This document shows, piece after piece, positions 4,704 through 21,569 of a stretch of 64,000 nt of DNA; the stretch's first letter is position 1; each line of letters opens with the position of its first letter. The DNA is from Trypanosoma brucei. Taxonomy: Eukaryota. The position numbers were made by a program, and so were the translations under genes. The notes below the pieces were generated by a model that saw only the letters and a program-made list of their open reading frames with translations, was not told the origin of the DNA and searched no databases. The stretch lies in assembly GCA_000002445.1 (NCBI GenBank), contig CP000071.1:1984001-2048000 (forward strand), given 5' to 3'.

Positions 4704-4868
4704 ATCTAAATTACTACGTTTACGAGTGCATGTGGGGAAGAAGAACAGAAAAAAATTAACGAGGAGGTGCAATAGCAAAAGCTCTTACATTCGCTTGAAT
4801 AAAATTCAAAAAAGAACATAAGCAAATCTCCGCCGAAAAAAAAAAATTCTCACCAAATGGCGAACAAT

Positions 4869-7550
4869 TTATGTGGAAGGTGTTAGTAGAAGTTGTCGAC
4901 GGCGCCTTCCTTCACCGTTAATCGTGTTGCGCCCCCCCTTAGAGGTATCTTTTGAAAGCAGCATGTAGCTGCTACCACTTGCTCCCCCCAAACTGCCGAA
5001 TTCATCCGCTGCATGCTCCTTGTGAAGTGCTACCGCACACCACTTGAGGAAGGAAACGATGTCCGATACGTCATCCGTTTGCAATACCCATGTGTCATTG
5101 GCCTCGATGTACTGATCAAGTTCGGCAGACGCACCGATAGGAGTTCGGTAACAAACCACAATCTTCATTGCGCGGCCAAAAAACAAAACGTCATCAACCA
5201 GCAGTTCCCCAAACCGCATTCCCACAACTTGGAATACAATCCTTCGAGTACCTAACTTCGAGGCTTCCCGATGAAGCATTCTTGCGCTGTGCCACGAATC
5301 AACCTTAAAGACAACACCCACTTGAATACAACTGTTAACGAACTCATCGTATGCTTCCTGAGACTGGGGTTGGGACTCCAGCTGTAATTGCGACCACATA
5401 CGCTCAACATGAAGCTTAGAACCAACGCTCATGACCCCAACATGGGATGCCGTCTGTGATGGCAACCTACCCTTATCACTCTCGCCCTCCGCATTTTTTT
5501 CCAACATATATTCAGCGATGCTCCTTACGCCGAGATGAGAAACAGATGGCAAGTGCTCTTTTGCATTTTCCGATACTTCTAATTGCGGTGAATGTGTCTT
5601 CGGCGCATGCCCATAAAGCAGTTGGTATTCCAAAGAAGTGGTATCTTTCAGTTGGCCATAATCACCCAAATGAGGAAAGGATACGTCCATTCCCCGGGGG
5701 CGAAGAAGATGTAATTTGCTGGGGAAACATTCCACAAACCATTGGAGTAAGCGTCGGTAACCGAATATACGGTCCCTCTCACCTACTGACGGAATTGAGA
5801 GGACGTGGGTTCCCGCCCCCGGACAACCACTGGTACTGTGCGCATCAACGAGGGTGACTGCCGTTCCTGGCAACGCTCGATCTACAAAATTGCCGTAGGC
5901 ATCCACCATATAGTCCACGTATCCCTTGGACTGATCGACAATAAAGGGCATCCCCTTTGTGATGCATCCCTCCCTGACGACAACAGTTAGCACAAGGCAA
6001 TTTGAACTGGTAGGGTTATTACTGTTCATTTTATTACGGACAGCATTGACGGAAGAGTTGATACGTACGGACACGCTGTTCCGCTCAAAGCGAGATTGCT
6101 GTTTTCTGGAAGTCATATCCTTCCTCTTTACGATATCCTGAACACCCTTTTTTGTTCTGAACCCTTCCTCGTCAAAGAGGTGTTTCGACGACTCTAAAAC
6201 AACACCTTGAATTGAACAGCAATGCGAAGTATAATCCGCCGCCCGGCTCATACATTTTGGCGGAAATGCGGATGTCATAAGCTCCACAACAGACCAAAAA
6301 AGATCGATATTCCTGTCGCCCTTGGCCGAAACGCACACCCCAACACAGCTACGGCTTAAGTCAACACAGGGATTTTTCCTACTACCTCGGTAAGTATGGT
6401 CAATAGTCTTCATGGGAGCAAATAATTGAAGAAGATTTGCAGCGCCATCGCACGCGTCAGTTAATACTTCGGTCGCGGATTGGTCAGCGCGAAGTCTCTC
6501 CAGGTCCCTGTGGCTTCGAACTAGCGTAACATTCAAACCAGCCCCTCGAAGATCGATAAGGGTCTTGGACACGGCTTCAGCAGCTTTCCGAGCGTTCGAA
6601 AATAAATCCATTTTATTGAGCACGACAACGACAGGGTTATCAACGTTTAACGCTACCTTAATGGTTTCGTAGGTCTGGCTTCCAACGCCATCAACCACCG
6701 ATACTACTAAAGCGATAAAATCGGCAACATTTTGCGCGTGTAGACGCGTTTCAGTAAATGTACGCTCACCCGGTGTATCCAGTAAAGTAACCGTCGGGCG
6801 GCGTCCCTCAATATACGGAACCGTAAAGGCCCTTAGACACTGGGTCGATCCCCTAGACTCTTCGCCGCGTAAGTTGGTCTCTTGTAAAGTATCAAGGAAG
6901 GTAGTTTTTCCATGCTGGGTGTGACCCATAACTGCGATTACCGGAACTCGAGTAAACGTACGTGGATGCAAACGTTTGAGATAATCAATACCGGTAGAGA
7001 CGTACACATCTTTTTCAACCCACTGAATGAATCGATTGCTCCCAAATCCAGTGGCGTCACGGGAAATTCGGAGCTCCTCTCTTTTCAGCTCCATTGCCGA
7101 TTCCCTTCGCACATAATCGGGAAGTCTCTTCAGTATAATGTTCGTAGCAATCTGGTATGGTACAATACACGTGGCAAGGCGTTCGTTCCGGAGACCATAC
7201 TCTTCCCAGACAGCGCGCTCAACTTCCTTTTCCCGCAAGTTAAGCAGTGGAGCCAAGTCTTCTCGAACTTTGCCACGAGTGTTGCAGTCAAAAGACTTGC
7301 AGCGGGCGGAACTGTTCCTCGCGAGAAAGTCTTCTTCGCAGAAATTTGCAAGCCTGTTTGTGCAAGAACGAACAAAACCAACAAAGGAGGTTACGTCCAT
7401 AACCGAAGGAAGTGAGTAAAATGCATTGCATGGCCTCTTCTGAAAAAAACGAGTGTGACGCATGCTTACACCATCGCTTTCTAGAAGGAGAAAGTGAGGA
7501 CAAACGACAGATATTGACAACATGATCAATAAGAGATCGGGCTTAAACAT
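4869..7550 (-). CDS. Translation initiation factor IF-2-like GTPase, probably mitochondrial, with a non-canonical switch II
   Basis: The G domain has the bacterial/organellar IF-2 motif order: G1 GHTQHGKTT, G3 DTPGERTF, G4 NKMD, with spacing that aligns to IF-2 (ITFLDTPGHAAFT...VVAADDGV...NKIDK). A long C-terminal extension is consistent with IF-2 domains. The N-terminus is hydrophobic and basic, presequence-like. Confidence 0.6.
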   Translation of the reverse strand: MFKPDLLLIMLSISVVCPHFLLLESDGVSMRHTRFFQKRPCNAFYSLPSVMDVTSFVGFVRSCTNRLANFCEEDFLARNSSARCKSFDCNTRGKVREDLAPLLNLREKEVERAVWEEYGLRNERLATCIVPYQIATNIILKRLPDYVRRESAMELKREELRISRDATGFGSNRFIQWVEKDVYVSTGIDYLKRLHPRTFTRVPVIAVMGHTQHGKTTFLDTLQETNLRGEESRGSTQCLRAFTVPYIEGRRPTVTLLDTPGERTFTETRLHAQNVADFIALVVSVVDGVGSQTYETIKVALNVDNPVVVVLNKMDLFSNARKAAEAVSKTLIDLRGAGLNVTLVRSHRDLERLRADQSATEVLTDACDGAANLLQLFAPMKTIDHTYRGSRKNPCVDLSRSCVGVCVSAKGDRNIDLFWSVVELMTSAFPPKCMSRAADYTSHCCSIQGVVLESSKHLFDEEGFRTKKGVQDIVKRKDMTSRKQQSRFERNSVSVRINSSVNAVRNKMNSNNPTSSNCLVLTVVVREGCITKGMPFIVDQSKGYVDYMVDAYGNFVDRALPGTAVTLVDAHSTSGCPGAGTHVLSIPSVGERDRIFGYRRLLQWFVECFPSKLHLLRPRGMDVSFPHLGDYGQLKDTTSLEYQLLYGHAPKTHSPQLEVSENAKEHLPSVSHLGVRSIAEYMLEKNAEGESDKGRLPSQTASHVGVMSVGSKLHVERMWSQLQLESQPQSQEAYDEFVNSCIQVGVVFKVDSWHSARMLHREASKLGTRRIVFQVVGMRFGELLVDDVLFFGRAMKIVVCYRTPIGASAELDQYIEANDTWVLQTDDVSDIVSFLKWCAVALHKEHAADEFGSLGGASGSSYMLLSKDTSKGGRNTINGEGRRRRQLLLTPST

Positions 7551-8260
7551 CGGTAGGTGTTCACATCAATATATGTATACAGCAAAAGTTTAATAAACAA
7601 TACCCCTGGACAGAATCAGCCAGTGAGAAAAGAAACGGAAACATTAAATAAAAAGGGGATGTAGTAGGGTACACTGATAACTACACCAAACATACCTAAT
7701 AAAAATAATACTAGTGATACTAATAAACAAACTTCTTTAAAAGATGCCCAGTCTTTTCCTTCGTTCCTCCACGAAGTGCAAGTTGTCCTGTACGGGAAAC
7801 TCTCTACGCCTTGAAGAATAAGGCAACACAGAAAAAGGGCAGCATTGCCCTCAATGAAAGCAAGAAGACTCCACTGTCAACCCATAGAGTATAAAGCATC
7901 TTCTCACGAGCCATGACATAGCTCGGATGGGTGTAAAAGACATTGGTTGCCCTCCCTCGTACTATCTTGTCCGCAAGCGTTGCACATGACTTTTCCACCT
8001 GAAGTGAAATTGAGCGAGCGTATCGCGTGACGACGGGATTTGAAAGGCGATATCCAAGTGAACGAATCATTATTTTTTTTTTGACAACCCCTAGTACAAT
8101 CAAATATGGTTGCAACAAGTGAACAGTTGAGGAAATGGAGGGGGGAAAATAGTGGCAAATGAGCAATAATAAAGCAGAACTTACCAAACAGTGGGTCAAA
8201 AATGTTCGATATATGATTCACAAGAAGGAGAAATTAGTATAGCACGTACAAGTCAAAAAA

Positions 8261-8896
8261 TCATGTGGCAACGGATCTGAAATCAAGAACAAATTGGGTT
8301 TCGCCTTTCTCATTCCGGCTTGCTTGAATTTTGATGGGCCCACTGGGGTACATTACTTGAACAAACCCCCGCAAGATACTAACCGCATACCTCAACACAT
8401 CACTGTCGGGGGGCAAAACACTCCCACTCTCCTTTCCTTGATCGGTGGGTCCATCACCCCCACAATACTTTTCTGAAGAGTCATACGGGTACCCATCAAC
8501 TGCAGAAACGATTTGGTCCGACTTTGCATCCGAAAATCCTTGAAGCCAGCGAAAATTGTTGTCGATTAAGCAAAAATAAATTTTGTCCATATGCTTCATT
8601 CTGTCAACCTTCTTTCCAAACACGGTCTTCCACAGGTGCTGACCCACAAAACGAGCTACGTCATTGGGGGTCGAACCCCCAAATGTTGCTTCTCGATATA
8701 ATAAACGCTCAGCCGAGCGTAAACCTACAAGGAGACCCAGTCTCTCGATGCCTTTGGAGCCAAATTCAGTATCAACCTCTTTGTTCCTACAAAAATTGAT
8801 CTCTTTCTTCTGACTGTTGCCTCTCAGCGCATATGAAACAAGTTCTAAACTCAGTTCTGACACCACACTCTCACTAACCAAGCCATGTTGACTCAT
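8261..8896 (-). CDS. TRAPP complex Bet3-family subunit, most like TRAPPC5/Trs31
   Basis: I recalled the human TRAPPC5 sequence and aligned it by eye. LWKTVFGKKVD corresponds to VWKALFGKEAD, and KIYFCLIDNNF to TFYIIEREP. The N-terminal SELSLELVSY corresponds to LSAFALLFSELV. Confidence 0.5.
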   Translation of the reverse strand: MSQHGLVSESVVSELSLELVSYALRGNSQKKEINFCRNKEVDTEFGSKGIERLGLLVGLRSAERLLYREATFGGSTPNDVARFVGQHLWKTVFGKKVDRMKHMDKIYFCLIDNNFRWLQGFSDAKSDQIVSAVDGYPYDSSEKYCGGDGPTDQGKESGSVLPPDSDVLRYAVSILRGFVQVMYPSGPIKIQASRNEKGETQFVLDFRSVAT

Positions 8897-9115
8897 CCTT
8901 TCCTCACTTCACTACATATATGTATATTTTAAAGAGCAAATGTAGTTGGATCGTCCCTTAGCAACCTTATGATAGAGTTTAGCGACTACTTCAGTTACCA
9001 TCACATATTATACTACCGCTTACAAATGAAATTGCGGTATCACAAACATCGTTGTATAAACACACTGAGAGCACCGTTTTGTTTGGAGTAGTCTTTACCT
9101 GAAAAGGGGGGGAAA

Positions 9116-9703
9116 TTATTGCTTCGCCTTGGGGACAACCTCAGACACAGCGTACGGACTACCAACAATGACACACCCCTCCTGTACGTACGGAACAAGT
9201 GCATCTCTCAACCCCATAAGTGCATCTAACCCACCGGTTACCCTTCCAAACGCCACGTGCCTCTTATCTAAAGAATCCAATTCCAGTCGATTGTCTGTTA
9301 AACAAAAGAAAAATGACTCGTCAAAGCTTGTGGATGAACGGCAAAGAGAGGCAATGCCCACCCCGTGGTTTACACGTCCGATTTCTGCTTCTAGCTCGGA
9401 AAGAGGAACGGCCCGAGGGCCTGAACCATCGGCAACCTGGAGTGCCTCTTTTGTCAACCTGACAAAACGGCACCCCTTGTAAGAGCCCCTCTTCGCGTTA
9501 CGCTTGTCACCCACAGTTGGGAAGGCACACGTTTGCAAGAAAAGATCACATGCTTTGGGGACTTTGTTTACGAATAATTCTACATCGATTCTTGTGAACG
9601 GTTCATCACCATCTTTCACAACAAACATCGAAACCACAGGCATGTTATCATCCCCGGTTCCCTCATGAAACTTGTGGACTTTGTTGGACCTCTTGACTGG
9701 CAT
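9116..9703 (-). CDS. Cyclophilin-type peptidyl-prolyl isomerase-like protein, divergent
   Basis: YKGCRFVRL corresponds to YKGSCFHRI, FFFCLTDN...LDKRHVAFGRVTGGLDAL to QFFICT...LDGKHVVFGKV.EGM.VV. The GGDF/NGTGG region is poorly conserved, so activity is uncertain. Confidence 0.55.
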   Translation of the reverse strand: MPVKRSNKVHKFHEGTGDDNMPVVSMFVVKDGDEPFTRIDVELFVNKVPKACDLFLQTCAFPTVGDKRNAKRGSYKGCRFVRLTKEALQVADGSGPRAVPLSELEAEIGRVNHGVGIASLCRSSTSFDESFFFCLTDNRLELDSLDKRHVAFGRVTGGLDALMGLRDALVPYVQEGCVIVGSPYAVSEVVPKAKQ

Positions 9704-9980
9704 CGCTACGTGACTTCACTTCAAACCCCACAACTCCAACACCAGTAGAAACGAGACAGACTAAATACGTCCAAATGTCACCAATGCAACGTCCTACGTG
9801 AAAGCAGAAGTCAAAAAGAGAGCAAAATAATTTTTACACCAGGGGTTTCAATTACATGAAAGGAATTCGCCTGTGAGAACTCGTGTGCACGCGATTTCCA
9901 TTTTTTTTTCCAGAAAAAAGAAAGCGAAGGACCAGGAAGTAAGTATAAATGAGTATGCCACGCCTGCTACACGTATGCAG

Positions 9981-10775
9981 TTAATACTTCAACGGCTGAT
10001 CAACAGGGTGGTTAACTTCAACATCCCTGACCAACTCGGGTAGTTTACCAAAAACACGATGGTATTCGTCCAGTGTCAAGAAAAGGTCACTCTTCACATA
10101 CATTTTCAGAGACGACGTGTTTGGAAAAAGAGTTGGGTGGCTCGTCCTCGCGTTGTCCAAAAAATTTTTTCTCTTAGAAACGCCTTCTGAAAGGACAAGC
10201 GAAAGTAACTTCGTAAGCTTACGTACGTCATCTGCGACCATCTCCGCAATAACATCTTCAGGTACGTCCACCTTTTCAGACTGGGCTACAACCCCAGGAA
10301 TCTTATCTACAAAACAAACGTATTGACCACCAAGTGGAACGACATCGTCATTTAAATATAGCACCCGCACGTCAGAGAAAATAGGTTCCTCCGTAGACTT
10401 GCATTCGGCGTCCATGAGTATCAAAAGTTCAGCCACATATCGATCAACCGCTTCAAAGAGCCCAACAAAGTGTGTCCCATAATCGAGAAAGATACCCGAC
10501 GGTGGTGAAGGGGGGCAACTCTGCTCGCTCAATGGGTTTCGACTCTTAACTGTAGCTGCATCGATCAGTTCCTGAAACACCTGGGAAAATGGACGCGAGG
10601 AGTCCTCCTTTAATTCGCCTGCAATTACTACCTTGGAAATAAAGGGATCCGTTCTATTTCTTTCCATCGTATGAAACTGCTTGAGCATTACATCCAGCAA
10701 TGTTTGCGCCTCCTCAAATGTATCTGCAGCCCGTAGTTGAGCATCCTCGGCTACACTCGACCCACCTTTTGTCAT
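9981..10775 (-). CDS. Hypothetical protein
   Basis: 264-codon ORF with an ATG at 10775. It is the first gene of the minus-strand cluster next to the strand-switch region. I recognise no domain. Confidence 0.45.
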   Translation of the reverse strand: MTKGGSSVAEDAQLRAADTFEEAQTLLDVMLKQFHTMERNRTDPFISKVVIAGELKEDSSRPFSQVFQELIDAATVKSRNPLSEQSCPPSPPSGIFLDYGTHFVGLFEAVDRYVAELLILMDAECKSTEEPIFSDVRVLYLNDDVVPLGGQYVCFVDKIPGVVAQSEKVDVPEDVIAEMVADDVRKLTKLLSLVLSEGVSKRKNFLDNARTSHPTLFPNTSSLKMYVKSDLFLTLDEYHRVFGKLPELVRDVEVNHPVDQPLKY

Positions 10776-13700
10776 ATTTCAATATCGACGGAAGCTAGTT
10801 GATGCGGTGGAAAGTGATAGGGTTAGCAATATCAGACGGAATTTGGCTCTCGAATAAGACACTGAAAGTAAGAAGACTAGGTGCGTCACTAGAAAAGAAT
10901 ACGGCATACGTCATGCCCACATAAACACAAAGGCAAACCGGGAACATATTGTATGCCCCTTCATACCATCCAAGGATATAACAGTAGGGTTAAAGCACCA
11001 TGTGATCAGTATGACTGGGTTCAAAAAAAAATACTTACATCACGTATTAATAGTCTTCCAGGATGCAAAACATAACAGACTGACTATGGTGAGATTTGCC
11101 CCCACAGATGCCATGAGACTTCTGACCGTCGCTACCGCTGGATGTAGGAACGGCGATTTAGTGATATGCATCGAAGTGAGCAGACTGGATGCTGCAACAT
11201 TTTCAAACGGCATCCGATTCCCAGAAAATGTCTCTGAAAGTTCCAACTCAAGTAAAGGTGGAAAACACGCTAATGCCAGTGAGCAGTAGCTGATGCAACC
11301 CACGTAACGGTCAGAAGTGTATCAGAAATGATTCACGATGTTTTCTATATCACAGGTGGAGAGTGATTGTAAAAAAGAGGCTCAGATATTCCCTCTGGCC
11401 GAGACTGCAGAATCTAGGTGGGAAGCGCCGCATCGTAAAACAAAAATAACGCCTTCGGAGTCCACCATGTCGCGCAGAGAGTTTTCGGTGATATATTAGT
11501 TAGTGCCACGAAAAAAGAACGCAGTAAAAAAAAACCACATGGTACAAAAAGGTTGAATCACCTAACAAAGGAAAAGGGGAAAAAGAGCGTCCAACAACAA
11601 CCATTACACAAAGAAAAAAGTAAAAGAAATGTAACGACACACCACCAAAGTGTGTAGCAATCCTTTGCGGCCGCATACCTCCGACAAAGCGTACCACATA
11701 AATGCACTTCTTGAAGATATGCAAGTTTGCACAAACCCACTTGCCCGAATGTATGCATTTTCCTAGACCGCACCCTGTCCCCTCTTTTTTTCCTTTTTAC
11801 AGGTGGCTGAGATGCTATGAAAACATGGAGACCCTCCCCATCTCACAAACACACCCCCTCGCGAGAACACAAACAACGCTCTCGTTATAAACGGCCTGTT
11901 CCACGGCAAAGCGTGGCGTTAGGAAAGCTCTTACATATTCCTCATTACGACTAGGCGCGTCGAACGAAGAGGAAGGGGTACACGGGAGAGCACTTCCACA
12001 TCCTACCTCTTTCAAGCTTGTGCAGAAAGCGGATCGGGTCCCCCGTGGGAAAGCAACCATCTTCATGCAGCACTTTTAGGGTAGGACACCGCAGTCCGTG
12101 TGGGGAAGTTCCCTTGAGGCATACCTCCAGAGTATTAAGCTGAGTAGCTACATTGTGTCCGTGTTTGTACCTGACGAAAACAACTCGTTCGACGCCTTTC
12201 GTTGGGAAGTCTGGGCACCGGAGGAGTTTTGGAGCCAGATTTGGCACCAGGGCGGTTCCGTCACCCACATCTCCTCTTGCTGTGTCTCCCGCCGGGTGCT
12301 CATGCCTAGCGACTCTGGCCACCCCTGACATGGACATATTGCTTACCCCACCAACCGCACCTGTGGCACCTTCCACTCCGACTTTCGATTAATGCTTTCT
12401 TTTTTTGCGTGTGTGTAGCAGTTCCCGACCCCTTGCTGAGGAAGAAGGATGTTGATGTTTTCGCTATCTTCCTGTTCGCCCCCATCCCTGCACTCCTTGC
12501 CATCTTGACCTTCATTTACTAGGCTAGCCCTCTCATTGCCTCACATATTCCGCCCCCTAATTCCGGCGTCAGTATTCCCCCGATCAACGGGGGTGTTGCC
12601 TCTTCATATATTTGGGCACGTAACCCCAGTGACAGTGCCTTGGACATGTAGGATGTCTCGGTTGTTCGACCACCATATGAACATGCCACCACTACTCCGT
12701 GGTGACTCCCGCATACAAAACCTGTGATCTGCCAACTGAACATTCCACCCGAACGTTTCGAGCGTACTCAGCGTCCAAACATTTCTCCGACTGCTTGTGT
12801 GTCGCTCCCTGTGGAGCGATACCCGTCCTTTCCGCTCTTGCGCAGTTGGGCCTGCGCCTGCCACCCTTCGACTGGCGGAAAGCTGTTCACCAAAAGCGCT
12901 GGATTCGCCACCGGTCATGGGTTTTGCATAGGAATCGCGCGATTTCACGCGCTTTGTTTTTTCGCAGACACCTGGGAGATGCTGTCCCTCCACCTGTTGA
13001 AAGTTTTCAAACACGGATATTGGCATCCGTCTGACGGGGTCATCCTCCATATATTTCCTCTGGAGTGCCCCTGGAACGTACCCCCCGGATCTCGCACTTC
13101 TCTGCTCCAGGTTGGAAATGCCACTCTCTTCTTCCTGGGAATAGGTTCCGTTTGAGCACGGTAGATTGCGGATGGCATTATCTCACTCGTGGTGCGCACA
13201 CCTTACAACTACTAGGGAGGCCGTTCCGTCATCTTGGATGCACGCTATCTCCTGGGATGTGGCCGATCTGATTTCTCAAAAGAAGAAAAAGAAAAACATC
13301 TTCGGTTGGTGGCTCGCGGTACTGATTCCGCTGGTAGCCTACCAGCGGCATCAGAGGTTACACAGCCGTAATCACTGCCAGAGTTGTTTTTGGTTAACCC
13401 GTTCTGCCGATGCACCGTATCCTTGGAAAGCGATAACTGGGCAGGCATCTGCTTCGCGGTTCTTTTTCTCCCATGTGGCCATATCCCTTTGGCTATTTTC
13501 ATTCGCGCGGTGGAGCCACAAACCAAAACTATTCCCCCGCCCGTTAACCCTCTGAGGCAAAGGGGAGCCACAAAAGTTGTTGGTGGTTCACGCTTACTAC
13601 CGCAACCGGTGGTGTTTCCACCACAGCCCAGCGGTTGCCGCTCAGTTGCGGCCACACTGGAACCCTCTTGAAAGCAGGCTGCTGTGACAGTAAGCGGGTT

Positions 13701-15222
13701 GGCAACAGCTACGCTGGGGCAAGGGTTATTGTTGAAGCATCCAAGCTAGGTGGGTCCCCTACATCTTTTGAGTGACGGTGGCTGAGAATGGATATCCCAC
13801 CTTGATTTGTCAGCAGCTCACACCAGCAAACTTCTAAAGTGCTGTTATTATCGTCATGCCGCGATGGTTCAGAGAAGAGAATGGTGTTGGCTGCTCGCCA
13901 TTTTCTTTTTTTTTTTTGGGGGGGGGTCTGGGTGGGGCACAGGCGTGTACGCCTCCCTCTCGAGAGTCAACGCCCAGTCGTTTATAAGACCGTGACGTGG
14001 CCAGAGTGGCCCATGGTAGGTATAATAGATTTCCCTCTGAACATTATGTTATAAAGCGGGGAAATTTGTGCTAACACTCAATTTTACGTTTGCCATACAC
14101 TGCCTTTTTGGCACTGTTAAACTGTCACTTGCTCAGGAATGCCAGTGCTGGTGGTTTGGATTCTCGTACACAGTGTTTACCCGGATGTTTACAGCGTTTC
14201 CGGCAGCGTTGGTTGACCGTTTACTGTAATCTCGAATGACTTCTGATCTTGGGTTGCAGGTGTTTGCTTACCCAACGTGGCTGTGACGGAGGTCCCAGTG
14301 ATGTGTTTTCTCCCCCGTCACTTGTAAACGCTGGAGGCTACTTAATATCTGTTGATAGGTTTTTAAAGTGGGGAAGGAAAAGTATCACCTCTGCAAGGAA
14401 ATTAACAACATCCCGCTTATCTCGTCTCGCAATGCGTCACTAGCGGGATGCTTCCCCCTTCGCACTGAAGTAGGAAACTCTGCCATTTTTAAAAAAAACC
14501 TGGCAAAAAGTAGATGCACAGTGACCTCTTGTAAAGCGGCGTTGTTAACTTAATCCGTGCGTTTTTGTTTAGTCGCTTTCAAGCGACATTTCTGTGTATA
14601 TCTAGGCATGTGTGAGGATCCTCTCCATATCCTCGCCGGTCTGATGTTTGCTTTGTTGCGCACCTGAGCGTTAACCGGGCATCCACGGGGTTATGTTGAA
14701 CACCTAACTGTGTGATTCTGACAGGTGAAATACTGTTTATCCTTGCCGAGTGATTTATGTTGATTAATGGCTGAGTGACAAACGTCCCTGATTATGCTAA
14801 CAGCACCGTCAGACAACTGACACTCGCTTGATGGTTCACATAGTGTCGTCACACTCTCTACATTCCATAGCCGGCGCTGTACTTAGATTTGTTTGTTTTG
14901 CAGTCTTACTTTCACAAGGAGTAACGACCTTACTTGAAGTATATATGTGTGTGCTGTGCTTGATTGACGGAGTTTCCCAAGGGAGCTGTTTCTCACCTCT
15001 TCCTTTGTGGTGCCGTATTTACGGTGGCAAGTGCGACCAGTCACGCTTCGTATTGGTGGTGGTGGTTCTTTGTCGGCCACTTTAACCGCCGCTTTTGGGC
15101 ACTAATAAATTTATCGGTACCATTTTATAAGGTGTGTATATTTTTTTGCCCGCAGTTGGCACGTATAAAACAGCTTCCGGCTCCTTTCCTTTTCTATTTG
15201 CTCATCATTACGTAGAGTTTCG
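10776..15222. promoter_or_regulatory. Divergent strand-switch region, a putative bidirectional RNA pol II transcription start zone
   Basis: All convincing CDS to the left are on the minus strand and all to the right are on the plus strand. This 4.4 kb gap has no convincing CDS. It contains a T12-G9 tract and AT-rich non-coding sequence at 13700-15200. In trypanosomatids, divergent strand-switch regions are where polycistronic transcription initiates; this is established knowledge, not visible in the sequence itself. Confidence 0.6.
13901..13937. repeat. Homopolymer junction T12 then G9 (ttttcT12G9tctgggtgggg) inside the strand-switch region
   Basis: Direct reading at 13906-13926. G-tracts and poly(dG:dC) are described at divergent strand-switch regions in trypanosomatids. 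Confidence 0.85.
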
Positions 15223-16518
15223 ATGGCCGAACCGTTCTCGACGATCCTTGGAACCGACGGCAGCGGTGGTCGGTGTAAATACCTGAACAAAGGGATTGTA
15301 GGATTGGGTTCCTATGGTGAAGCATATGTAGCGGAGAGCGTGGAGGATGGGTCTCTTTGTGTAGCAAAAGTCATGGATTTAAGCAAGATGTCTCAGCGGG
15401 ATAAGCGGTACGCGCAGAGCGAAATCAAGTGTCTGGCCAACTGTAATCATCCAAACATTATTCGTTACATTGAGGACCACGAGGAAAATGATCGGTTGCT
15501 TATTGTCATGGAATTCGCTGACTCAGGCAACCTTGATGAGCAAATAAAGCTTCGGGGCACAGGAGATGCGCGCTACTTTCAAGAACACGAGGCCTTGTTT
15601 CTCTTCTTACAACTGTGTCTTGCCCTTGACTACATCCACAGCCATAAGATGCTGCACCGCGATATCAAATCTGCCAATGTGCTGCTCACATCAACAGGAC
15701 TAGTTAAGCTGGGAGACTTTGGATTCAGTCATCAATATGAAGACACCGTATCAGGCGTCGTTGCAAGTACGTTCTGTGGCACACCGTACTACCTGGCACC
15801 AGAGCTGTGGAATAATAAAAGGTACAATAAGAAGGCTGATGTGTGGTCGTTGGGTGTTTTATTGTACGAAATTATGGGCATGAAGAAACCATTTTCAGCA
15901 AGTAATTTGAAAGGTTTGATGTCGAAGGTTCTTGCTGGCACATATGCTCCCTTGCCGGATAGCTTCTCGTCCGAATTTAAACGTGTTGTTGATGGTGTCC
16001 TTGTAGCGGACCCTAATGACAGACCAAGTGTAAGGGAAATTTTTCAGATACCGTACATCAATAAGGGTCTTAAATTATTTGTGCAAGCACTGAAGAAAAA
16101 CGAACGAATCTCGGACTCGGTGAAGGAGGTCCTCGTAACACAGGTCAGCGAAATCTTATCCTCGGAAGTGAGCCCTGATGCACATCGTTTCCTGGTATCA
16201 CAAATTAACTACGACGTTACACACCGAGGACATGTAAACAAACTGGGTGGTGGAAACGGGAAGTCGTGGAAACCGAGGTTTTTGCAGATTGTTCGCGGAC
16301 AGCTCATTTTAACAGATGATGAAGAAGGAAATAATCCAAAAGGCCTAAACCTTGAACAAGTGCAGGGTGCTTGCCCGGTGCCTCACAGTACTGCAAAGAG
16401 AGATTTTGTGTTTGCCCTCAATACGGTCGGCGGAAAGGGTATGTGGTTTCAGGCTGTATCACATGGGGACATGGAAATGTGGGTTCACGCGATTCAACGT
16501 GGTATAGGTGTCGCCTAA
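15223..16518 (+). CDS. NEK-family serine/threonine protein kinase with a C-terminal PH domain
   Basis: Kinase subdomains: VAKVMD, HRDIKSANVLL, DFGFS, GTPYYLAPE. The NEK-like N-terminus has an acidic-residue pattern. The C-terminal roughly 110 aa (WKPRFLQIVRGQLIL...FVFALNTVGGKGMWFQAVSHGDMEMWVHAIQ) fits the PH-domain pattern. ATG at 15223. Confidence 0.8.
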   Translation: MAEPFSTILGTDGSGGRCKYLNKGIVGLGSYGEAYVAESVEDGSLCVAKVMDLSKMSQRDKRYAQSEIKCLANCNHPNIIRYIEDHEENDRLLIVMEFADSGNLDEQIKLRGTGDARYFQEHEALFLFLQLCLALDYIHSHKMLHRDIKSANVLLTSTGLVKLGDFGFSHQYEDTVSGVVASTFCGTPYYLAPELWNNKRYNKKADVWSLGVLLYEIMGMKKPFSASNLKGLMSKVLAGTYAPLPDSFSSEFKRVVDGVLVADPNDRPSVREIFQIPYINKGLKLFVQALKKNERISDSVKEVLVTQVSEILSSEVSPDAHRFLVSQINYDVTHRGHVNKLGGGNGKSWKPRFLQIVRGQLILTDDEEGNNPKGLNLEQVQGACPVPHSTAKRDFVFALNTVGGKGMWFQAVSHGDMEMWVHAIQRGIGVA

Positions 16519-16855
16519 ATGTGCTTTCGCTTGCTTAACGATTGTTTTAATTATTTTTTTTTATTGCTGTGAATACATATTTTTATTCTTTCAATTATTA
16601 GAAGAGACATGGGACTGCGGGGGTAATCTATAGTTGTTCGTTTGCTTTTTTTGCTTGTTTGTTTGTGCGTATGTGTGTCCGGTATTAACGCTCTGTGTTG
16701 CTTTTGTGGCAGCTTGTGCTATATACGAGCCCAAAAGAAAACTGTTTTTGGTGGCGTCACTCCCTGTTCGGTTCATAAACTTTCGTTGTTGCTCCATCCG
16801 CGCGCTCCGTGCCAAACATTATAGGGTATTATTACGCAGTGTATTTTTATATTAG

Positions 16856-19800
16856 ATGGCAACCAACGCGCGCATTCTAGGGTTCAACTCTCCCTCTGCT
16901 CTCGTCGCTGCGGGTGACGACTTTCTCCTAGGAGCGGGGGGTGGCATCGTTATCCGACGCAAGGAAGAGTCGTCCCAGTGGATCCCTTGTGAAGGGCGCT
17001 ACGCGATCGGTGCGCTGGCGTTTTCACCCTCTGCAGGTTTGCTGTGCGTAACTGAGGTGAAGCTGGATGTGTCGCTGCACGTTTTCCGATTTCCAGAACG
17101 TCACCACCTGCAGTGTATTGATAATGTTGCGACCGTGGATGTGCAGCACATGTTATTCTCGAGTGATGGAGAAATGTTAGCCCTTCTAACATGTATACCA
17201 ACAACTTGTGTTACTTTTTATTCAGCCGCTCGCGGCAACAGATTGGTGAAATGTGCCTCGACCGAGCTAGGCGGTGTCTTCTGCAAGCACTTAACGTTTC
17301 CGTTGCATCGGCATGATTGTATAGCCGTTTTGGAACCACACGGTGTTCGAATTGCGTGCAACATGGATTCGGCCACATTTGTACCAAGTATTCTCACATT
17401 GAGTTCGAAGGGACACTATTTTCACTCTTGCGTATGGGGCACTGAGGGTCTGTACTGTGGTGCTGGTAGGGGTCAGGTAGTTCTCTTGGACGAGCTGAGA
17501 ACAGATATGAAGAATTGTATAAACTGCGAAACACCTCACAATGTTACTGCTCTACTGCAAAACGGGACTCTTTTATTCATTGGAACGGAGTGTGGTGATG
17601 TGTTTACTTACAATATTGATCAGAAGGCACAACGGCTGCTTGTGAGATTAGGTCGTTCGGTAGTTCGTTTACTGACGTTACCAGACGTAAATGATGTTTT
17701 AGTTGCAACCAGTACCGATGTAACAAAAATTTCTGTGGACACCGCGCAGTCTGTTTTTGTTCGACGCCGGAGCGCCTCCGACACTGTGAAGCTTCTGGTG
17801 TTGGGAGGTCTCGTCGTGATAGTGTGTTTAGATGGGAGTCTCGTTACTTATGATCAGGACACGAATACAGCGGTGCACAACCCTGTCAGATTTCCCGAGA
17901 AAGTTGTAGATGCGTGCGTCGTGGACTCCGTAGTGGTAGTCGTATATGACAGCGGGTTCGTCCGTTCCTTCACAGTGGAAAATACCGTTAGTGTTGTTTC
18001 CCAGATGAAGGTAAGTGACTGTCCCTTGACCGCTTGCACATCTGACGGAGTTTCACTCTTAGCTGTATGTGACAAAAATGTAGTCCATTTCATTGAGGTG
18101 GCAGATGGACTTCTTGAAACCGCAGCCTCCTCGGATATATTCGCTTGTGCCGTGACTAACTTGCGATGGGCAGTGAATGGTGGACAATCGGTGCTGGCAG
18201 CATGTAACAATGGCGAGGTGCACAACTTACGCTTCACTGGGAAGTGTGATTCCGCGTCAGCTGGTGTGACTGTTGATATGACTTGGCGCTTGGACTTCCC
18301 GGTTAACGACTTTCTGCCTCTCTACGGTGACGGCGATGTGATCAACGTCTTCGTCCACTCGGTGGACAAAGACACCAAGATGTACGCCCTGGAGCGGCAG
18401 CGAGTAAAGGAGAGTAAACCCCTGAGGCCTTACTTCCTTATGCGTGATCATGAATGCGGTGGCAATGTGCTGCAGCGTCTTGGAGGGGATAGCATCATTT
18501 CCGCAGGAGGAGATGGCAGAGTAGTTGTAAGGGATATCTCACACTACTTGATGAAATTACCTCCTGTGCCACCGACGAAAGAAAAGAAACACCCACTTAA
18601 GGAATTTTTGTTACGACCGTTTGGTAGGGGCGGTATTACGTGCCTCTCGGTGTGGAATGCTGCCGGAGGGTTTGTCTGTGGAGGAAACGATAGTGTTGTT
18701 CATTTAGTTCCCGTTGGGAAATCACCTATCCACTATTCATGGAGTGAACCCTTCTGGCACCAAAGAGCTATCTCAACATCACCGAGTCGTGCAAGTTCTC
18801 CAAGTGATGCTGAAACACTTTCAGCAGAACGGTCGCGCTGCCGTATAATATCGGCTCTGGCCGACCTGAGGATGGAAGTAGAGAAGCTGCTCCAGGAAAG
18901 AACCCCAACTGTGCGCGCAGAAGACTTCCTTTTGCCTGAACAACGACAAGCGTTTAACGAGGAATGTGAGGTGGAGATCCACAAGGCGAGGGAAGATGAC
19001 TACTACAGCCTGGTTCACAATGAGTTCGTGCAACACACGATCAAAACTGAATGTTGGGACGTCATGGAGGTGCAACGCTCGAAAATCGTGAGCATGACAG
19101 ATCCCGAAACGGAAGTTCACAACTTCCATCTGCGAAAACCTTGTGCCCAACGAGCAAAAATACAGAAAAAAATCAAACTGATGAGGGCTATACAGATAAA
19201 GACTGAGGAGTGCTTTACGTTGTCATCACTAGTTAAAAGGGCTAAGGAGGGGAACTTATGCACGGAGCAGCAGGTTTGCGGGCCCCCCAGTGATGTAGAC
19301 GAATTGCTTTATGACACTTTGGACGTCTACACCGGCCCTCGCGCGACCATACAGTTGATTTTGCTAGAATGTAAAATTCTTCACGAAAAAAAGTCATTCA
19401 ACATCCGGTTTGACACCTTGCGGGAGCGCAAGAGCCGAGAGCTGAATCTCATTGCGGAAAGGAACGGACGTTGCGTTCGCATCATGCAGCAGCTGGGAGA
19501 GCACACGTGCCCACCAAATGTTTTATTCACTCCTGTTTTTGATATAGAGGAAGACCCCCAAACTGTCTTTGAGGTTTTTGACTCTGAGATTGACCCTGAA
19601 CTCCTCAAACTAGCCGTCAAAAGTGACGATGGGGAGCTTGTAGTTTCCCCTTCCGATGAAGCTGCTTTAAAGACCTGGATGGATGGCCTCGAGAAAGTCA
19701 CCGAGGTTCTTCGCGTCAACGTGCCGATTCCCCCATTCGCTGACAACTCACTCGAGCAATATGTACCGCCTGAAGAGCGGAGTGATGAGCAACAGAGAAT

Positions 19801-21238
19801 ATTTGAGGAGTATGAAAAAGAGGTTGCAGAACAAACTGTGTTGATCAATGAGAAGAAAGAGTTACTGCGAGGGGAAGTTGCAGCATTGGTGAAAGCTAAC
19901 ATGACTTCTGCGAAAGCAATAGATGATGAGATTGACGTGCTAAGAACTGACCGTATGCTAGTCGCTCAACTCGTGGACGAGCTGGAGCTACACCAGGTGA
20001 ATGCGCTGTGTCTGTTTCTACTCAAGAAAACGATCCGCAATAAGTTTCTGGGTGTCAAGCGAGAGGAGGAGGACCTTCTGTGCCGGTTGAGGCAATTGGA
20101 TAGTCTTTACGAGTACCGCCTGAAATTGTATTTGGCCTCGGAGGCGAGGGTGCAGGACTGCATTGAAGAAGAAAAGAACATGATTACGGACATGCGCTGT
20201 TTGCCCCCATTCACCGATCCGGATTGGGGAGAGAGACTGAACAGGCGCTTCACGACTTGGCGTTCCAAGTACGAGGATGGCCTGGCTAAGGTCCCGGAAC
20301 CCACTCGCTCGGGTGTGGTTCCTATTCCACTATGGGAACAGTACTGCCAGTGCTGTAGGGCAGTCGTGGAGGCAAGGGATAAAATAATTCACCTTAGAGG
20401 CGAAGCAGACGCACTCAATGATGAAGTGGTAGAGGTTGAGACGGAAAAAAAGAAAGCACAGTTTGCACTTGACGACAAGGAAAAGGCCGAGGAGGCATGT
20501 AGAAAAGAAGTCATAGAGAAGGTACTCGACATACAAAACTTGTACACGCTGCAGCAAGGACAGGTGCAGGATGAGAACGCTATGGTGAGCGATGATTTCA
20601 CCGACTTCTCCATTCGATGGGTGAAGAACATTACAGATTACAACGACCTTATCTTCGCTAGCTTTGACGAAATACGATCCCTTATGAGTCGTTCATCACA
20701 ACTTCGGCAGTCTATGAAAACATGCTCTTGGGAAACAGAACGTCTGTTATACTGCATTGGAACGCTAGAAATGGAATTACGGCAGTTGCACACATTAAGA
20801 GTGACTCGGCAGATGCAGGAGACCATCCATACCGGCGCTGTAACGTCTCTCGAAAGGGAAATAAACAAGATGGATGCACGAATCGAGGCTGTTCGAAGTG
20901 TCATGTCAAAGAAGGTTGAGGAGCGTAACCGGGTCATATCAAAGCTAAAAATGCAAATTAACGACAGACGCGCGGAGAACCAGTACCTGAACAACCAAGT
21001 CCAAGCTCTGACAAACAGCGTTGAGGATAAGAAAGCTGTATGGGGTATGCTTGGGGAACACAACAATGATAAAGATCGTCTCCGTGAGAGGATGAGGGAA
21101 CTATACGAGAATAGCGAACTTGAGGAGTTGGCTCGCTGCCAGCAAGAGGAACTTGTTCGCCTTAAAAACGAGGTAGATCGCTTGCGTGAGGCCACATTTC
21201 CCTCATTTGCTGTTGTTACGAGGAGGACCGCCAGATGA
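16856..21238 (+). CDS. Large WD40-like then coiled-coil protein (1460 aa); hypothetical, possibly flagellar CFAP43/44-like
   Basis: The N-terminal roughly 650 aa are rich in beta-strand/WD-like segments. The C-terminal roughly 800 aa are heptad-rich and E/K/L/R-rich coiled coil. This architecture and size resemble CFAP43/CFAP44, but that link rests on inference alone. Confidence 0.6.
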   Translation: MATNARILGFNSPSALVAAGDDFLLGAGGGIVIRRKEESSQWIPCEGRYAIGALAFSPSAGLLCVTEVKLDVSLHVFRFPERHHLQCIDNVATVDVQHMLFSSDGEMLALLTCIPTTCVTFYSAARGNRLVKCASTELGGVFCKHLTFPLHRHDCIAVLEPHGVRIACNMDSATFVPSILTLSSKGHYFHSCVWGTEGLYCGAGRGQVVLLDELRTDMKNCINCETPHNVTALLQNGTLLFIGTECGDVFTYNIDQKAQRLLVRLGRSVVRLLTLPDVNDVLVATSTDVTKISVDTAQSVFVRRRSASDTVKLLVLGGLVVIVCLDGSLVTYDQDTNTAVHNPVRFPEKVVDACVVDSVVVVVYDSGFVRSFTVENTVSVVSQMKVSDCPLTACTSDGVSLLAVCDKNVVHFIEVADGLLETAASSDIFACAVTNLRWAVNGGQSVLAACNNGEVHNLRFTGKCDSASAGVTVDMTWRLDFPVNDFLPLYGDGDVINVFVHSVDKDTKMYALERQRVKESKPLRPYFLMRDHECGGNVLQRLGGDSIISAGGDGRVVVRDISHYLMKLPPVPPTKEKKHPLKEFLLRPFGRGGITCLSVWNAAGGFVCGGNDSVVHLVPVGKSPIHYSWSEPFWHQRAISTSPSRASSPSDAETLSAERSRCRIISALADLRMEVEKLLQERTPTVRAEDFLLPEQRQAFNEECEVEIHKAREDDYYSLVHNEFVQHTIKTECWDVMEVQRSKIVSMTDPETEVHNFHLRKPCAQRAKIQKKIKLMRAIQIKTEECFTLSSLVKRAKEGNLCTEQQVCGPPSDVDELLYDTLDVYTGPRATIQLILLECKILHEKKSFNIRFDTLRERKSRELNLIAERNGRCVRIMQQLGEHTCPPNVLFTPVFDIEEDPQTVFEVFDSEIDPELLKLAVKSDDGELVVSPSDEAALKTWMDGLEKVTEVLRVNVPIPPFADNSLEQYVPPEERSDEQQRIFEEYEKEVAEQTVLINEKKELLRGEVAALVKANMTSAKAIDDEIDVLRTDRMLVAQLVDELELHQVNALCLFLLKKTIRNKFLGVKREEEDLLCRLRQLDSLYEYRLKLYLASEARVQDCIEEEKNMITDMRCLPPFTDPDWGERLNRRFTTWRSKYEDGLAKVPEPTRSGVVPIPLWEQYCQCCRAVVEARDKIIHLRGEADALNDEVVEVETEKKKAQFALDDKEKAEEACRKEVIEKVLDIQNLYTLQQGQVQDENAMVSDDFTDFSIRWVKNITDYNDLIFASFDEIRSLMSRSSQLRQSMKTCSWETERLLYCIGTLEMELRQLHTLRVTRQMQETIHTGAVTSLEREINKMDARIEAVRSVMSKKVEERNRVISKLKMQINDRRAENQYLNNQVQALTNSVEDKKAVWGMLGEHNNDKDRLRERMRELYENSELEELARCQQEELVRLKNEVDRLREATFPSFAVVTRRTAR

Positions 21239-21480
21239 TGGCGGTGCCCTGCTGACACTGGCGAGGGGGGGCAAGTGAGGCAGAAGTCGGTGTTATTCGG
21301 ACAAGTGGCAGAAGGAAGTATTATGTAGCAAGTTGGAAACTAGAGAGTTGCGCTCCATTTCGTGACACGGTGGTTCATGTATTTTAGAGCATATACTATC
21401 AGTGAACTAACGTCATCAGAAAAATTTGCCCCACTAGGGCCTTGCAATTGTGGCCTGTGTGCTTACCCGTGTGCTACTAA

Positions 21481-21542
21481 CTTCTATCTTCTGCACAAGC
21501 GCTTTCTTTTTTTTTAAGTAATTGTTGTTGTTGTTGCTTTAG
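21481..21542 (+). promoter_or_regulatory. Polypyrimidine tract plus AG; candidate trans-splice acceptor for the downstream gene
   Basis: cttctatcttctgcac...gctttctttttttttaagtaattgttgttgttgttgctttAG lies immediately upstream of the 21570 ATG. Confidence 0.5.
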
Positions 21543-21569
21543 CTGGAAAGTAGTGGTGCTGTGAAGCGA

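What the first reader, a model, noticed from the sequence alone, without database searches (positions are those of the whole stretch)
10776..15222. 4.4 kb divergent strand-switch region: probable polycistronic transcription start zone
Gene orientation flips here, from minus-strand genes at 1..10775 to plus-strand genes at 15223..63645. The interval has no credible CDS, which is unusual in an otherwise compact cluster. It holds a purine-rich block (11500-11660), a GC-rich block of mutually overlapping ORFs (11880-13700), a T12-G9 junction (13906-13926) and an AT-rich tail. In trypanosomatids such regions carry pol II initiation sites marked by histone variants and acetylation. The exact start sites for this locus cannot be read from the sequence and would be new information.
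Basis: partly seen in the sequence, partly recalled or inferred. Interest (0 to 1): 0.55.

Follow-up and report, generated by a model that had tools for sequence, protein, structure and literature searches.

The report
Known trypanosome divergent transcription-start region
This gene-free 4.4 kb gap is the already catalogued divergent strand-switch region between genes Tb927.8.6920 and Tb927.8.6930 on Trypanosoma brucei chromosome 8, where RNA polymerase II starts two opposite gene arrays; it is real but ordinary.

Summary
Genes run on the minus strand up to 10775 and on the plus strand from 15223. The A-rich block, the T12-G9 junction and the T-rich tail are at the stated coordinates. The "GC-rich" block is only 53.6% GC against a window mean of 50.2%.

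The window is T. b. brucei TREU927 chromosome 8 (Tb927_08_v4:1,984,001-2,048,000). The interval separates Tb927.8.6920 (TEX47-like) from Tb927.8.6930 (NrkA kinase). Kolev et al. 2010, Table S14, already lists both flanking units as "Divergent" Pol II transcription units.

No gene is hidden in the interval. There is no tRNA, Rfam or Pfam hit. ORF codon usage looks like wrong-frame decoys. Substitutions between TREU927 and DAL972 are neutral in every ORF tested, and some ORFs gain stop codons, whereas the flanking genes show strong purifying selection.

The sequence carries the published T. brucei promoter-region signature. Strand-biased GT-rich 10-mers fall only on the minus strand left of about 12.07 kb, and with one exception only on the plus strand to the right. 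The T-run/G-run is kept in four strains.

Side result: chr 4/chr 8 duplicon homology ends 20 nt upstream of the NrkA ATG.

The parts
9981..10775 (-). Tb927.8.6920 (TEX47-like protein, 264 aa), first gene of the minus-strand polycistron Tb927.8.6920->6570
   Evidence: Pfam TEX47. Gene ID from the coordinate anchor (poly(A) site 1,993,910, 3' UTR 71 nt) and Table S14. RNA-seq contig L005 covers it and reaches window 10944.
10776..12073 (-). Left arm: G+T-rich on the minus (sense) strand; inferred 5' part of the minus-strand transcription start region
   Evidence: Cumulative keto skew falls to its global minimum at 12073. Wedel 10-mers: 0 hits on +, 7 on -; 0 of 300 shuffles reach this.
11500..11660 (-). 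A-rich 'purine block'; on the minus strand a T/C-rich tract (CTCTTTTTCCCCTTTTCCTTT at 11587-11567, next AG at 11563), a candidate first polypyrimidine/splice-acceptor signal
   Evidence: 69.6% purine, 51.6% A. Polypyrimidine/AG scan. Function is inferred, not shown.
11951..12328 (-). ORF annotated in T. b. gambiense DAL972 as 'hypothetical protein, unlikely' (CBH13769.1, 126 aa); judged non-coding
   Evidence: Codon score 0.026 for the enclosing open frame 11954-12388, in the decoy range. That frame has 1 synonymous and 5 non-synonymous changes against DAL972. Singleton cluster.
12074..13750 (.). Strand-neutral core (about 54% GC, pyrimidine-rich on +) between the two arms; inferred to be the largely non-transcribed spacer between divergent start regions
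   Evidence: Plateau of the cumulative keto skew. ORFs here evolve neutrally and several gain stops in DAL972. No Pfam, Rfam or repeat hits. Wedel 2017 describes a non-transcribed region between divergent TSRs.
13906..13937 (+). T12-G9 junction followed by TCTGGGTGGGG: GT homopolymer element and potential G-quadruplex at the start of the plus-strand arm
   Evidence: Exact coordinates. Contains four Wedel 10-mers. One of only three G4 motifs in 64 kb. Kept with length variation in four strains: T12G9, T12G10, T9G10, T8G13AGGAG.
13751..15222 (+). Right arm: G+T-rich on the plus (sense) strand; inferred 5' part of the plus-strand transcription start region
   Evidence: GT 55-59% in 400-nt windows. 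Rising keto skew. Wedel 10-mers over 12074-15222: 12 on +, 1 on -; 0 of 300 shuffles reach this.
15181..15215 (+). Polypyrimidine tract (15181-15203) and AG (15214-15215), candidate spliced-leader acceptor of NrkA; homology with the chr 4 paralogous locus begins at 15203
   Evidence: Polypyrimidine/AG scan. BLAST boundary and junction sequences.
15223..16518 (+). Tb927.8.6930, Ser/Thr kinase NrkA (kinase + PH domain), first gene of the plus-strand polycistron Tb927.8.6930->7290
   Evidence: Pfam. 100% identical to AAZ13457.1 of TREU927 chr 8. Table S14.

Best explanation
The interval is the divergent strand-switch region of T. brucei chromosome 8 between Tb927.8.6920 and Tb927.8.6930. It holds no gene. 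Proposed mechanism, by analogy with published work on this genome: RNA polymerase II starts transcription at many dispersed sites in two oppositely oriented start regions. These correspond to the left arm (about 10.8-12.07 kb, minus strand) and the right arm (about 13.75-15.2 kb, plus strand), and they probably extend into the first genes. A roughly 1.7 kb strand-neutral core lies between them. Direction would be set by G+T-rich tracts on each sense strand. The T12-G9/G-quadruplex-capable tract at 13906-13937 would mark the upstream edge of the plus-strand start region and help exclude or destabilise nucleosomes, favouring H2A.Z/H2B.V chromatin. The first polypyrimidine-AG signals downstream then define the first spliced-leader-capped mRNAs. 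Shown here: identity of the locus, absence of genes, the strand-partitioned GT signature, and retention of the T/G tract. Taken from the literature: the locus's classification as divergent Pol II units. Inferred: the arm/core boundaries and the role of the T/G tract.
For: Locus identity: CFAP43 and NrkA are 100% identical to TREU927 chr 8 proteins, and two independent poly(A)-site anchors give the same offset of 1,984,000. Catalogued: Table S14 of Kolev 2010 lists Tb927.8.6920->6570 (-) and Tb927.8.6930->7290 (+) as 'Divergent', with 5'-PPP enrichment reported at every divergent unit. No gene: no tRNA (5), no Rfam hit, no Pfam hit in six frames. Codon scores run from -0.20 to 0.06, against 0.064-0.26 for real genes. 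Between TREU927 and DAL972 every tested ORF has non-synonymous >= synonymous changes, and four gain stops, against 10S/3N for NrkA and 35S/12N for CFAP43. Divergence is 3.2% against 1.15% in the coding flank. The longest ORF has only repeat-motif artefact hits among 1.84 billion representatives. No novel transcript of Kolev 2010 lies inside. Signature: the global minimum of the keto skew is at 12073 with a plateau to about 13750. Wedel 10-mers are 0+/7- on the left and 12+/1- on the right, about ten-fold over shuffles. G-runs are the top 10-mer in region 1 (the 5'-most fifth) of TSRs (132 vs 17), and the T/G tract is kept in four strains. The unrelated chr 4 upstream region of the NrkA paralogue, also 'Divergent' in Table S14, shows the same bias (19 sense, 0 antisense).
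Against: No transcript 5' ends or chromatin data for this locus were seen directly. The only RNA evidence here is contig L005, which reaches 10944 on the minus strand. GT-rich/G-run elements are not specific: a (TG)n-G8 element lies at 1810-1857 (minus strand) inside a polycistron with no start site listed by Kolev, and coding strands are G+T-skewed throughout the window. The minus-strand arm has no G-run. The arm and core boundaries come from composition only. Wedel 2017 found that all TSR fragments drive some transcription and that context matters, so a single element such as T12-G9 may be dispensable.
Confidence: 0.9

Rival explanations
1. A missed protein-coding gene lies in the interval, for example the DAL972-annotated 126-aa ORF (11951-12328, minus strand) or the 192-codon open frame (12607-13182, minus strand).
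For: DAL972 annotates one ORF here. There is a mild excess of long open frames in 11880-13700 (top-five sum p about 0.01). The 192-codon frame scores 0.062, at the edge of the weakest real gene at 0.064.
Against: The annotators themselves flag the ORF as 'unlikely', and it is a singleton cluster. Substitutions are neutral: the open frame 11954-12388 that contains the DAL972 ORF has 1S/5N, and the 192-codon frame has 5S/19N plus a new stop in DAL972, with no third-position bias. No Pfam domain. The only hits for the 192-aa frame are a 22-residue match to a repeated bacterial motif. No novel transcript in Kolev 2010.
Confidence: 0.02
2. The central block (about 11.9-13.7 kb) is the decayed remnant of a former gene or retroelement. 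This would explain its coding-like GC content and its excess of open frames. It is compatible with the region also acting as the spacer of a start region.
For: GC 53.6%, like the coding parts of the window. Marginal ORF excess. Pyrimidine skew on the + strand.
Against: No Pfam match in any frame, including reverse transcriptase or endonuclease. No repeat copies in the window. No similarity to the chr 4 paralogous locus. No homologue for the longest frame. Non-coding RIME/SIDER-type elements were not tested, for lack of reference sequences.
Confidence: 0.08
3. The main role of the interval is in DNA replication, as an ORC1/CDC6 binding site or origin, rather than or in addition to transcription initiation.
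For: Tiengwe 2012: 70% of divergent SSRs carry at least one ORC1/CDC6 site, and 19 of 42 early origins centre on divergent SSRs.
Against: The chr 8 origins named in the text are at 0.86, 1.45 and 1.89-1.9 Mb, not at about 1.995 Mb. About 80% of ORC1/CDC6 sites are not active early origins. Nothing in the sequence can test binding. This role would add to the start region, not replace it.
Confidence: 0.25
4. The interval encodes a structured or long non-coding RNA gene, as at strand-switch regions that hold tRNA, snRNA or snoRNA genes.
For: Kolev 2010 describes SL-lacking polyadenylated RNAs at suspected start sites, so unstable non-coding transcripts from the arms are expected.
Against: No tRNA (5). 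No Rfam family at gathering score, and at E<=1 only a chance-level hit. No novel or non-coding transcript of Kolev 2010 maps here. Sequence diverges faster than coding DNA (70).
Confidence: 0.07

Closest known systems
T. brucei divergent strand-switch regions / Pol II transcription start regions (Siegel 2009; Kolev 2010; Wedel 2017)
   Same: Divergent polycistrons, a gene-free gap of a few kb, G+T-rich sense strands, a G-run at the 5' edge, and listing of both flanking units as 'Divergent' in Kolev's Table S14.
   Different: Nothing substantive. Only the plus-strand arm has a G-run. Chromatin marks and 5'-PPP reads were not viewed here.
Synthetic GT-rich promoters GT_210_nt and GT_416_nt (Wedel 2017)
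   Same: T12-G9 and the neighbouring GT tracts consist of the same class of coding-strand-biased 10-mers (TTTTTTTTGG, TTTTTTTGGG, TTTTGGGGGG, TTTGGGGGGG) that were assembled into those promoters.
   Different: The natural element is short (about 30 nt) and sparse compared with 210-416 nt of concatenated 10-mers. Its promoter activity is untested.
Leishmania major chromosome 1 strand-switch region (Martinez-Calvillo 2003, cited)
   Same: Divergent Pol II initiation in a gene-free gap between two polycistrons. From my own knowledge, not checked here: that region contains homopolymer G/C tracts.
   Different: The L. major region is much shorter (under 1 kb, from memory) than this 4.4 kb interval.
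Mammalian CpG-island / dispersed bidirectional promoters
   Same: Broad, bidirectional initiation without a TATA-type core motif, and H2A.Z-marked unstable nucleosomes; both Kolev 2010 and Wedel 2017 draw this analogy.
   Different: There is no CpG-island logic and no gene-specific regulation, and each side drives tens of genes that are processed by trans-splicing.

Membership tests
T. brucei divergent strand-switch region with Pol II transcription start regions | Two polycistronic gene arrays diverging from a common gap | tested here: met
   Minus-strand genes to 10775, plus-strand genes from 15223. Flanking genes identified as Tb927.8.6920 and Tb927.8.6930.
T. brucei divergent strand-switch region with Pol II transcription start regions | Listed as a start of Pol II units in a published genome-wide 5'-triphosphate RNA / histone-mark catalogue | tested here: met
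   Kolev 2010 Table S14 lists both units as 'Divergent'. The text states enrichment at every divergent unit.
T. brucei divergent strand-switch region with Pol II transcription start regions | Coding-strand-biased GT-rich 10-mers and G-runs concentrated at the 5' end of each start region | tested here: met
   0+/7- hits left of 12073 and 12+/1- hits to the right, with 0 of 300 shuffles reaching the observed counts. T12-G9 holds four listed 10-mers. Caveat: a similar element occurs inside a polycistron at 1810-1857.
T. brucei divergent strand-switch region with Pol II transcription start regions | Enrichment of H2A.Z/H2B.V, H4K10ac and BDF3 over 5-10 kb | not testable with these tools
   ChIP-seq tracks (Siegel 2009; GSE98061 of Wedel 2017) cannot be read here.
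T. brucei divergent strand-switch region with Pol II transcription start regions | Sense-biased 5'-triphosphate RNA ends on both strands at this locus | not testable with these tools
   Only the summary table is held. Per-base data are not available.
Sequence-specific Pol II promoters (Cordon-Obras 2022) | Defined promoter sequence elements driving orientation-dependent initiation | not tested
   The paper is not held, so its motifs could not be obtained. Only citing statements were read.
Protein-coding gene | Gene-like codon usage, purifying selection between strains, homologues | tested here: not met
RNA gene cluster (tRNA/snRNA/snoRNA) at a strand-switch region | tRNA or Rfam family match | tested here: not met
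Retroelement (ingi/DIRE/SLACS-type) insertion or relic | Reverse transcriptase or endonuclease domain remnants; repeated copies | tested here: not met
   No Pfam hit in six frames and no repeats in the window. Non-coding RIME/SIDER relics were not testable.
Replication origin / ORC1-CDC6 site | ORC1/CDC6 ChIP signal or MFA-seq peak | not testable with these tools
   Prior of about 70% for divergent SSRs. No origin is named near 1.995 Mb in the text.
Chr 4 / chr 8 segmental duplicon (Jackson 2007) | Sequence homology with the chr 4 paralogous locus | tested here: not met
   Homology with DAL972 chr 4 starts at window 15203, so the interval lies outside the duplicon.

The most novel reading that the evidence does not exclude
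The two NrkA paralogues (chr 8 here, chr 4 in L013) both head 'Divergent' Pol II units. Yet their upstream DNA is unrelated from 17-20 nt before the ATG, and the two regions share only the sense-strand G+T/10-mer bias. This pair could serve as a natural experiment showing that Pol II start-region function in trypanosomes is specified by strand-biased composition and position next to the first gene, not by conserved sequence. It might also suggest that start regions act as preferred breakpoints or conversion boundaries of segmental duplications.
Probability: 0.3. Interest if true: 0.3.

Novelty: already known. Interest (0 to 1): 0.12.

Why it matters
It matters little as a discovery. Divergent strand-switch regions are the textbook Pol II start zones of trypanosomatids, and this one is already in the published catalogue for the reference strain. 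The useful outputs are practical:

- Exact reference coordinates for the interval (Tb927_08_v4:1,994,776-1,999,222).
- Evidence that the 'unlikely' ORF annotated in DAL972 is not a gene.
- A base-level description of how the published GT-rich signature splits between the two strands at about 12.07 kb.
- The observation that the chr 4/chr 8 duplicon homology stops 20 nt upstream of the first gene. This leaves two unrelated upstream regions with the same compositional signature.

Tried and rejected
1. I searched the 5.8-billion-cluster protein collection with 28 interval ORFs joined by X spacers and got no hits. This was later shown to be a false negative: P0003 is in the collection and is 97% identical to one of those ORFs. 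One search is therefore not used as evidence.
Only the 192-codon frame was searched.
3. The three weak hits to that frame (E 5e-5 to 8e-4) were rejected as artefacts. About 22 residues match a motif repeated 5-6 times in bacterial BamE-like and adhesin proteins.
4. An orthologue of the TEX47-like gene was found only in T. congolense (52% identity), and its locus could not be fetched. No cross-species alignment of the interval was possible.
5. TREU927 itself is not in the contig index.
6. P0011/L014, hoped to show the NrkA 5' end at this locus, turned out to come from the chr 4 copy.
7. The bacterial promoter/terminator scan showed no enrichment and does not apply to this organism.
8. The hypothesis that the duplicon breakpoint lies inside the interval was rejected. 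The boundary is at its right edge, at 15203.
9. Siegel 2009 and Cordon-Obras 2022 are not held, so their G-run statement and promoter motifs are not cited as read.
Full report
**Observation.** The ORF map shows every long, domain-bearing ORF on the minus strand up to 10775 and on the plus strand from 15223. On the minus side these are an IQ-motif protein, a GTPase, a TRAPP subunit, a cyclophilin and a TEX47-like protein. On the plus side they are a kinase with a PH domain, CFAP43, 3-methylcrotonyl-CoA carboxylase and others. The 4447-nt gap is the largest ORF-free stretch in the window.
- 11500-11660 is 69.6% purine (51.6% A).
- T12-G9 is exactly at 13906-13926, and it is the only G-run of 8 or more in 64 kb.
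- 13927-15222 is 46% GC and 32% T.
- The "GC-rich" block 11880-13700 is only 53.6% GC against a window mean of 50.2%.

The overlapping ORFs in that block are a marginal excess over dinucleotide shuffles: longest frame p about 0.09, sum of the five longest p about 0.01.

**Where the window comes from.** The window is colinear and 99.6-99.7% identical to T. equiperdum assemblies. Its CFAP43 and kinase proteins are 100% identical to TREU927 chromosome 8 proteins AAZ13458.1 and AAZ13457.1, the latter being NrkA. Gene order matches the chr 8 side of the chr 4/chr 8 duplicon described by Jackson 2007: NrkA Tb927.8.6930, Tb927.8.6940 (the chr 8 paralogue of TbCFAP43, Tb927.4.5380), dynein LC2B 6950, 6960, MCC 6970. 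Two independent poly(A)-site anchors from Kolev 2010 Table S13 both give window position = chr 8 v4 coordinate minus 1,984,000. They are Tb927.8.6920 at 1,993,910 with a 71-nt 3' UTR, and Tb927.8.6950 at 2,006,091 with a 171-nt 3' UTR. The interval is therefore Tb927_08_v4:1,994,776-1,999,222, between Tb927.8.6920 and Tb927.8.6930.

**Already catalogued.** Kolev 2010 Table S14 lists "Tb927.8.6920 -> Tb927.8.6570, -, Divergent" and "Tb927.8.6930 -> Tb927.8.7290, +, Divergent" among putative Pol II transcription units. The paper states that 5'-triphosphate RNA reads were enriched at every divergent transcription unit and at all sites marked by modified and variant histones, with both sense and antisense reads. 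Wedel 2017 produced improved start-site, H2A.Z, RPB9 and nucleosome maps. Later work uses H4K10ac footprints in TriTrypDB to place start sites. I could not view the per-base tracks.

**No hidden gene.** The evidence is as follows.
- ARAGORN finds no tRNA.
- Rfam finds nothing at gathering score, and at E<=1 only one chance-level hit.
- There are no tandem or dispersed repeats.
- No Pfam family matches any of the six frames, even at E<=1.
- A codon log-odds score trained on the window's 19 genes gives 0.064-0.26 bits per codon for real genes (leave-one-out) and -0.066 +/- 0.068 for wrong-frame decoys. All 28 interval frames of 70 or more codons score between -0.20 and 0.062.
- The strongest test is evolutionary. 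Between TREU927 and T. b. gambiense DAL972 (L010), NrkA has 10 synonymous and 3 non-synonymous changes and CFAP43 has 35 and 12, mostly at third codon positions. Every interval frame tested has non-synonymous >= synonymous changes with no third-position bias, and four frames acquire stop codons in DAL972. The 192-codon frame, for example, has 5S/19N plus one stop.
- Overall divergence is 3.2% in the interval against 1.15% in NrkA+CFAP43.
- DAL972 annotates a 126-aa ORF here, but as "hypothetical protein, unlikely", and it is a singleton cluster.
- An exhaustive HMMER search of the 192-codon frame against 1.84 billion representatives gave three weak hits. Each is a 22-residue match to a motif repeated in bacterial proteins.
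- None of Kolev's novel or non-coding transcripts maps inside the interval. The nearest are Tb8.NT.103 and 104 at window 30042-32191.

My composite-query search is discarded. It missed P0003, a sequence shown to be in the collection.

**Sequence anatomy.** The cumulative G+T (keto) skew of the whole 64 kb window has its global minimum at 12073. It falls steadily to that point, is flat to about 13750, and then rises. I scored the 157 coding-strand-biased 10-mers of Wedel 2017 Dataset EV1 against the window.
- Within the interval, the seven minus-strand hits left of 12073 lie at 11024-11845.
- Plus-strand hits lie at 12406-15190.
- One exception is a purine-rich 10-mer on the minus strand at 12395.
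- Counts are 0+/7- left of 12073 and 12+/1- to the right. Expectations from shuffles are about 0.7 and 1.1, and none of 300 shuffles reached the observed values.
- T12-G9 alone contains four listed 10-mers. G-runs head the list, at 132 coding-strand against 17 non-coding-strand occurrences in region 1, the 5'-most fifth of start regions.
- G9-TCT-GGG-T-GGGG is one of only three canonical G-quadruplex motifs in the window.
- The T-run/G-run is kept in all four strains, with slippage-type length variation: T12G9, T12G10, T9G10, T8G13AGGAG.
- The "purine block" reads on the minus strand as a polypyrimidine tract followed by AG at 11563. That makes it a candidate first splice-acceptor signal of the minus-strand unit, but this is inference only.
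- RNA-seq-derived Logan contigs carry the spliced leader joined at 9794 for the cyclophilin mRNA. One contig (L005) extends to 10944 on the minus strand.

**Mechanism.** The best-supported reading is the published model for this genome. Two dispersed, direction-biased Pol II start regions are marked by H2A.Z/H2B.V and acetylated histones, and a largely non-transcribed spacer separates them. I assign the left arm (10776 to about 12073) to the minus-strand unit and the right arm (about 13750 to 15222, opening with the T/G tract) to the plus-strand unit. The strand-neutral, roughly 54% GC core would be the spacer. These boundaries are compositional inferences.

There are caveats. Coding strands are G+T-skewed throughout the window. 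A (TG)n-G8 element of the same class sits at 1810-1857 (minus strand) inside a polycistron with no listed start site. Such elements are therefore not diagnostic on their own. Wedel 2017 also found that every start-region fragment has some activity and that genomic context matters.

**Relation to the chr 4/chr 8 duplication.** Jackson 2007 noted that the 0.5 Mb duplicon on chr 8 begins with NrkA and is preceded by a strand-switch region. I fetched the DAL972 chr 4 locus (L013).
- Homology with the window runs from 15203 to 26931 at 98% identity, then at 88% to 30541.
- The two copies are identical from CATTACGTAGAGTTTCG-ATG onward and unrelated upstream.
- The interval is therefore chr 8-specific, and the homology boundary lies 17-20 nt before the NrkA start codon.
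- The unrelated chr 4 upstream DNA shows the same bias, with 19 sense-strand and 0 antisense 10-mer hits and a rising keto skew over more than 6 kb.
- The chr 4 unit (Tb927.4.5390->5100) is also listed as "Divergent".

This fits the idea of low-information, composition-defined start regions, but it remains an observation, not a test.

**Other roles.** ORC1/CDC6 binds 70% of divergent strand-switch regions, and 19 of 42 early origins centre on such regions. The chr 8 origins named in the text (0.86, 1.45, 1.89-1.9 Mb) do not include about 1.995 Mb. An added replication role can be neither shown nor excluded here.

**Verdict.** The feature is real, correctly described and correctly interpreted. 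It is an ordinary, already catalogued divergent strand-switch region of the T. brucei reference genome. Novelty: already known. Interest: low.

Noticed in passing
window 1810-1857 (minus strand), intergenic between the IQ-protein gene (2193-4778) and the Dymeclin-like gene (starts about 1217): A (TG)n-like run of about 40 nt ending in G8 (GTGTGTGTGTTTGTGTGTGTTTGTGTGTTTGTGTGTGCGTGGGGGGGG). It probably accounts for most of the 27 hits to Wedel's TSR-biased 10-mers in window 1-2000. It lies inside a polycistron for which Kolev 2010 lists no internal start site. It is either an unrecognised internal start element or evidence that such elements are not specific.
   Followed up: partly
window 15203 (boundary); 15203-26931 and 27135-30541: Homology with the chr 4 paralogous locus (DAL972 FN554967.1) starts abruptly 20 nt upstream of the NrkA ATG. 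It is 98% identical over 11.7 kb and then drops to 88%. This suggests a recent gene-conversion tract covering the first five duplicon genes.
   Followed up: partly
L013 8369-8992 (DAL972 chr 4): The chr 4 NrkA copy is called as only 207 aa in DAL972, whereas TREU927 chr 4 NrkA (P0006) is 431 aa. This could be pseudogenisation or an assembly error.
   Followed up: no
window 42824-45214, inside ORF 41403-46205 (+): About 18 tandem copies of a 123-nt (41-aa) unit at 97-98% identity inside a 1600-aa ORF. Long antisense ORFs (42875-45556, minus strand) are probably a by-product of the repeat.
   Followed up: no
window 28925-32395: The second-largest ORF-poor gap in the window. Kolev 2010's novel transcripts Tb8.NT.103 and Tb8.NT.104 map to window 30042-31146 and 31248-32191.
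   Followed up: partly
window 11574-21238 compared with L010 (DAL972 chr 8): TREU927-DAL972 divergence is high: 3.2% in the interval and 1.15% in NrkA+CFAP43. Against the two T. equiperdum assemblies it is 0.1-0.4%. This may reflect exchange with the chr 4 copy in one lineage.
   Followed up: no
GCA_003543875.1 record CM010675.1 (2.37 Mb): Both CFAP43 paralogues (RHW73111.1 and RHW73082.1, locus tags DPX39_0400...) are reported on this single record. In that assembly the chr 4-type and chr 8-type copies therefore sit on one scaffold. The kinase was not among the genes listed for L001.
   Followed up: no
L005 (Logan ERR7929164 contig) = window 8366-10944, minus strand: A 2.6 kb RNA-seq contig spans three genes (TEX47-like, cyclophilin, TRAPP) with no spliced leader at its 5' end. 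It may be an unprocessed polycistronic precursor or an assembly that merged overlapping mRNAs.
   Followed up: partly
tool behaviour: the search for homologous proteins, given a 2908-aa query of X-joined ORFs, missed a cluster representative that is 97% identical to one segment. Long composite queries to that tool give unreliable negatives.
   Followed up: yes
window 42187-42211 (+) and 46741-46761 (minus-strand G4, C-rich on +): The only other canonical G-quadruplex motifs in the window besides the one at 13918-13937.
   Followed up: no
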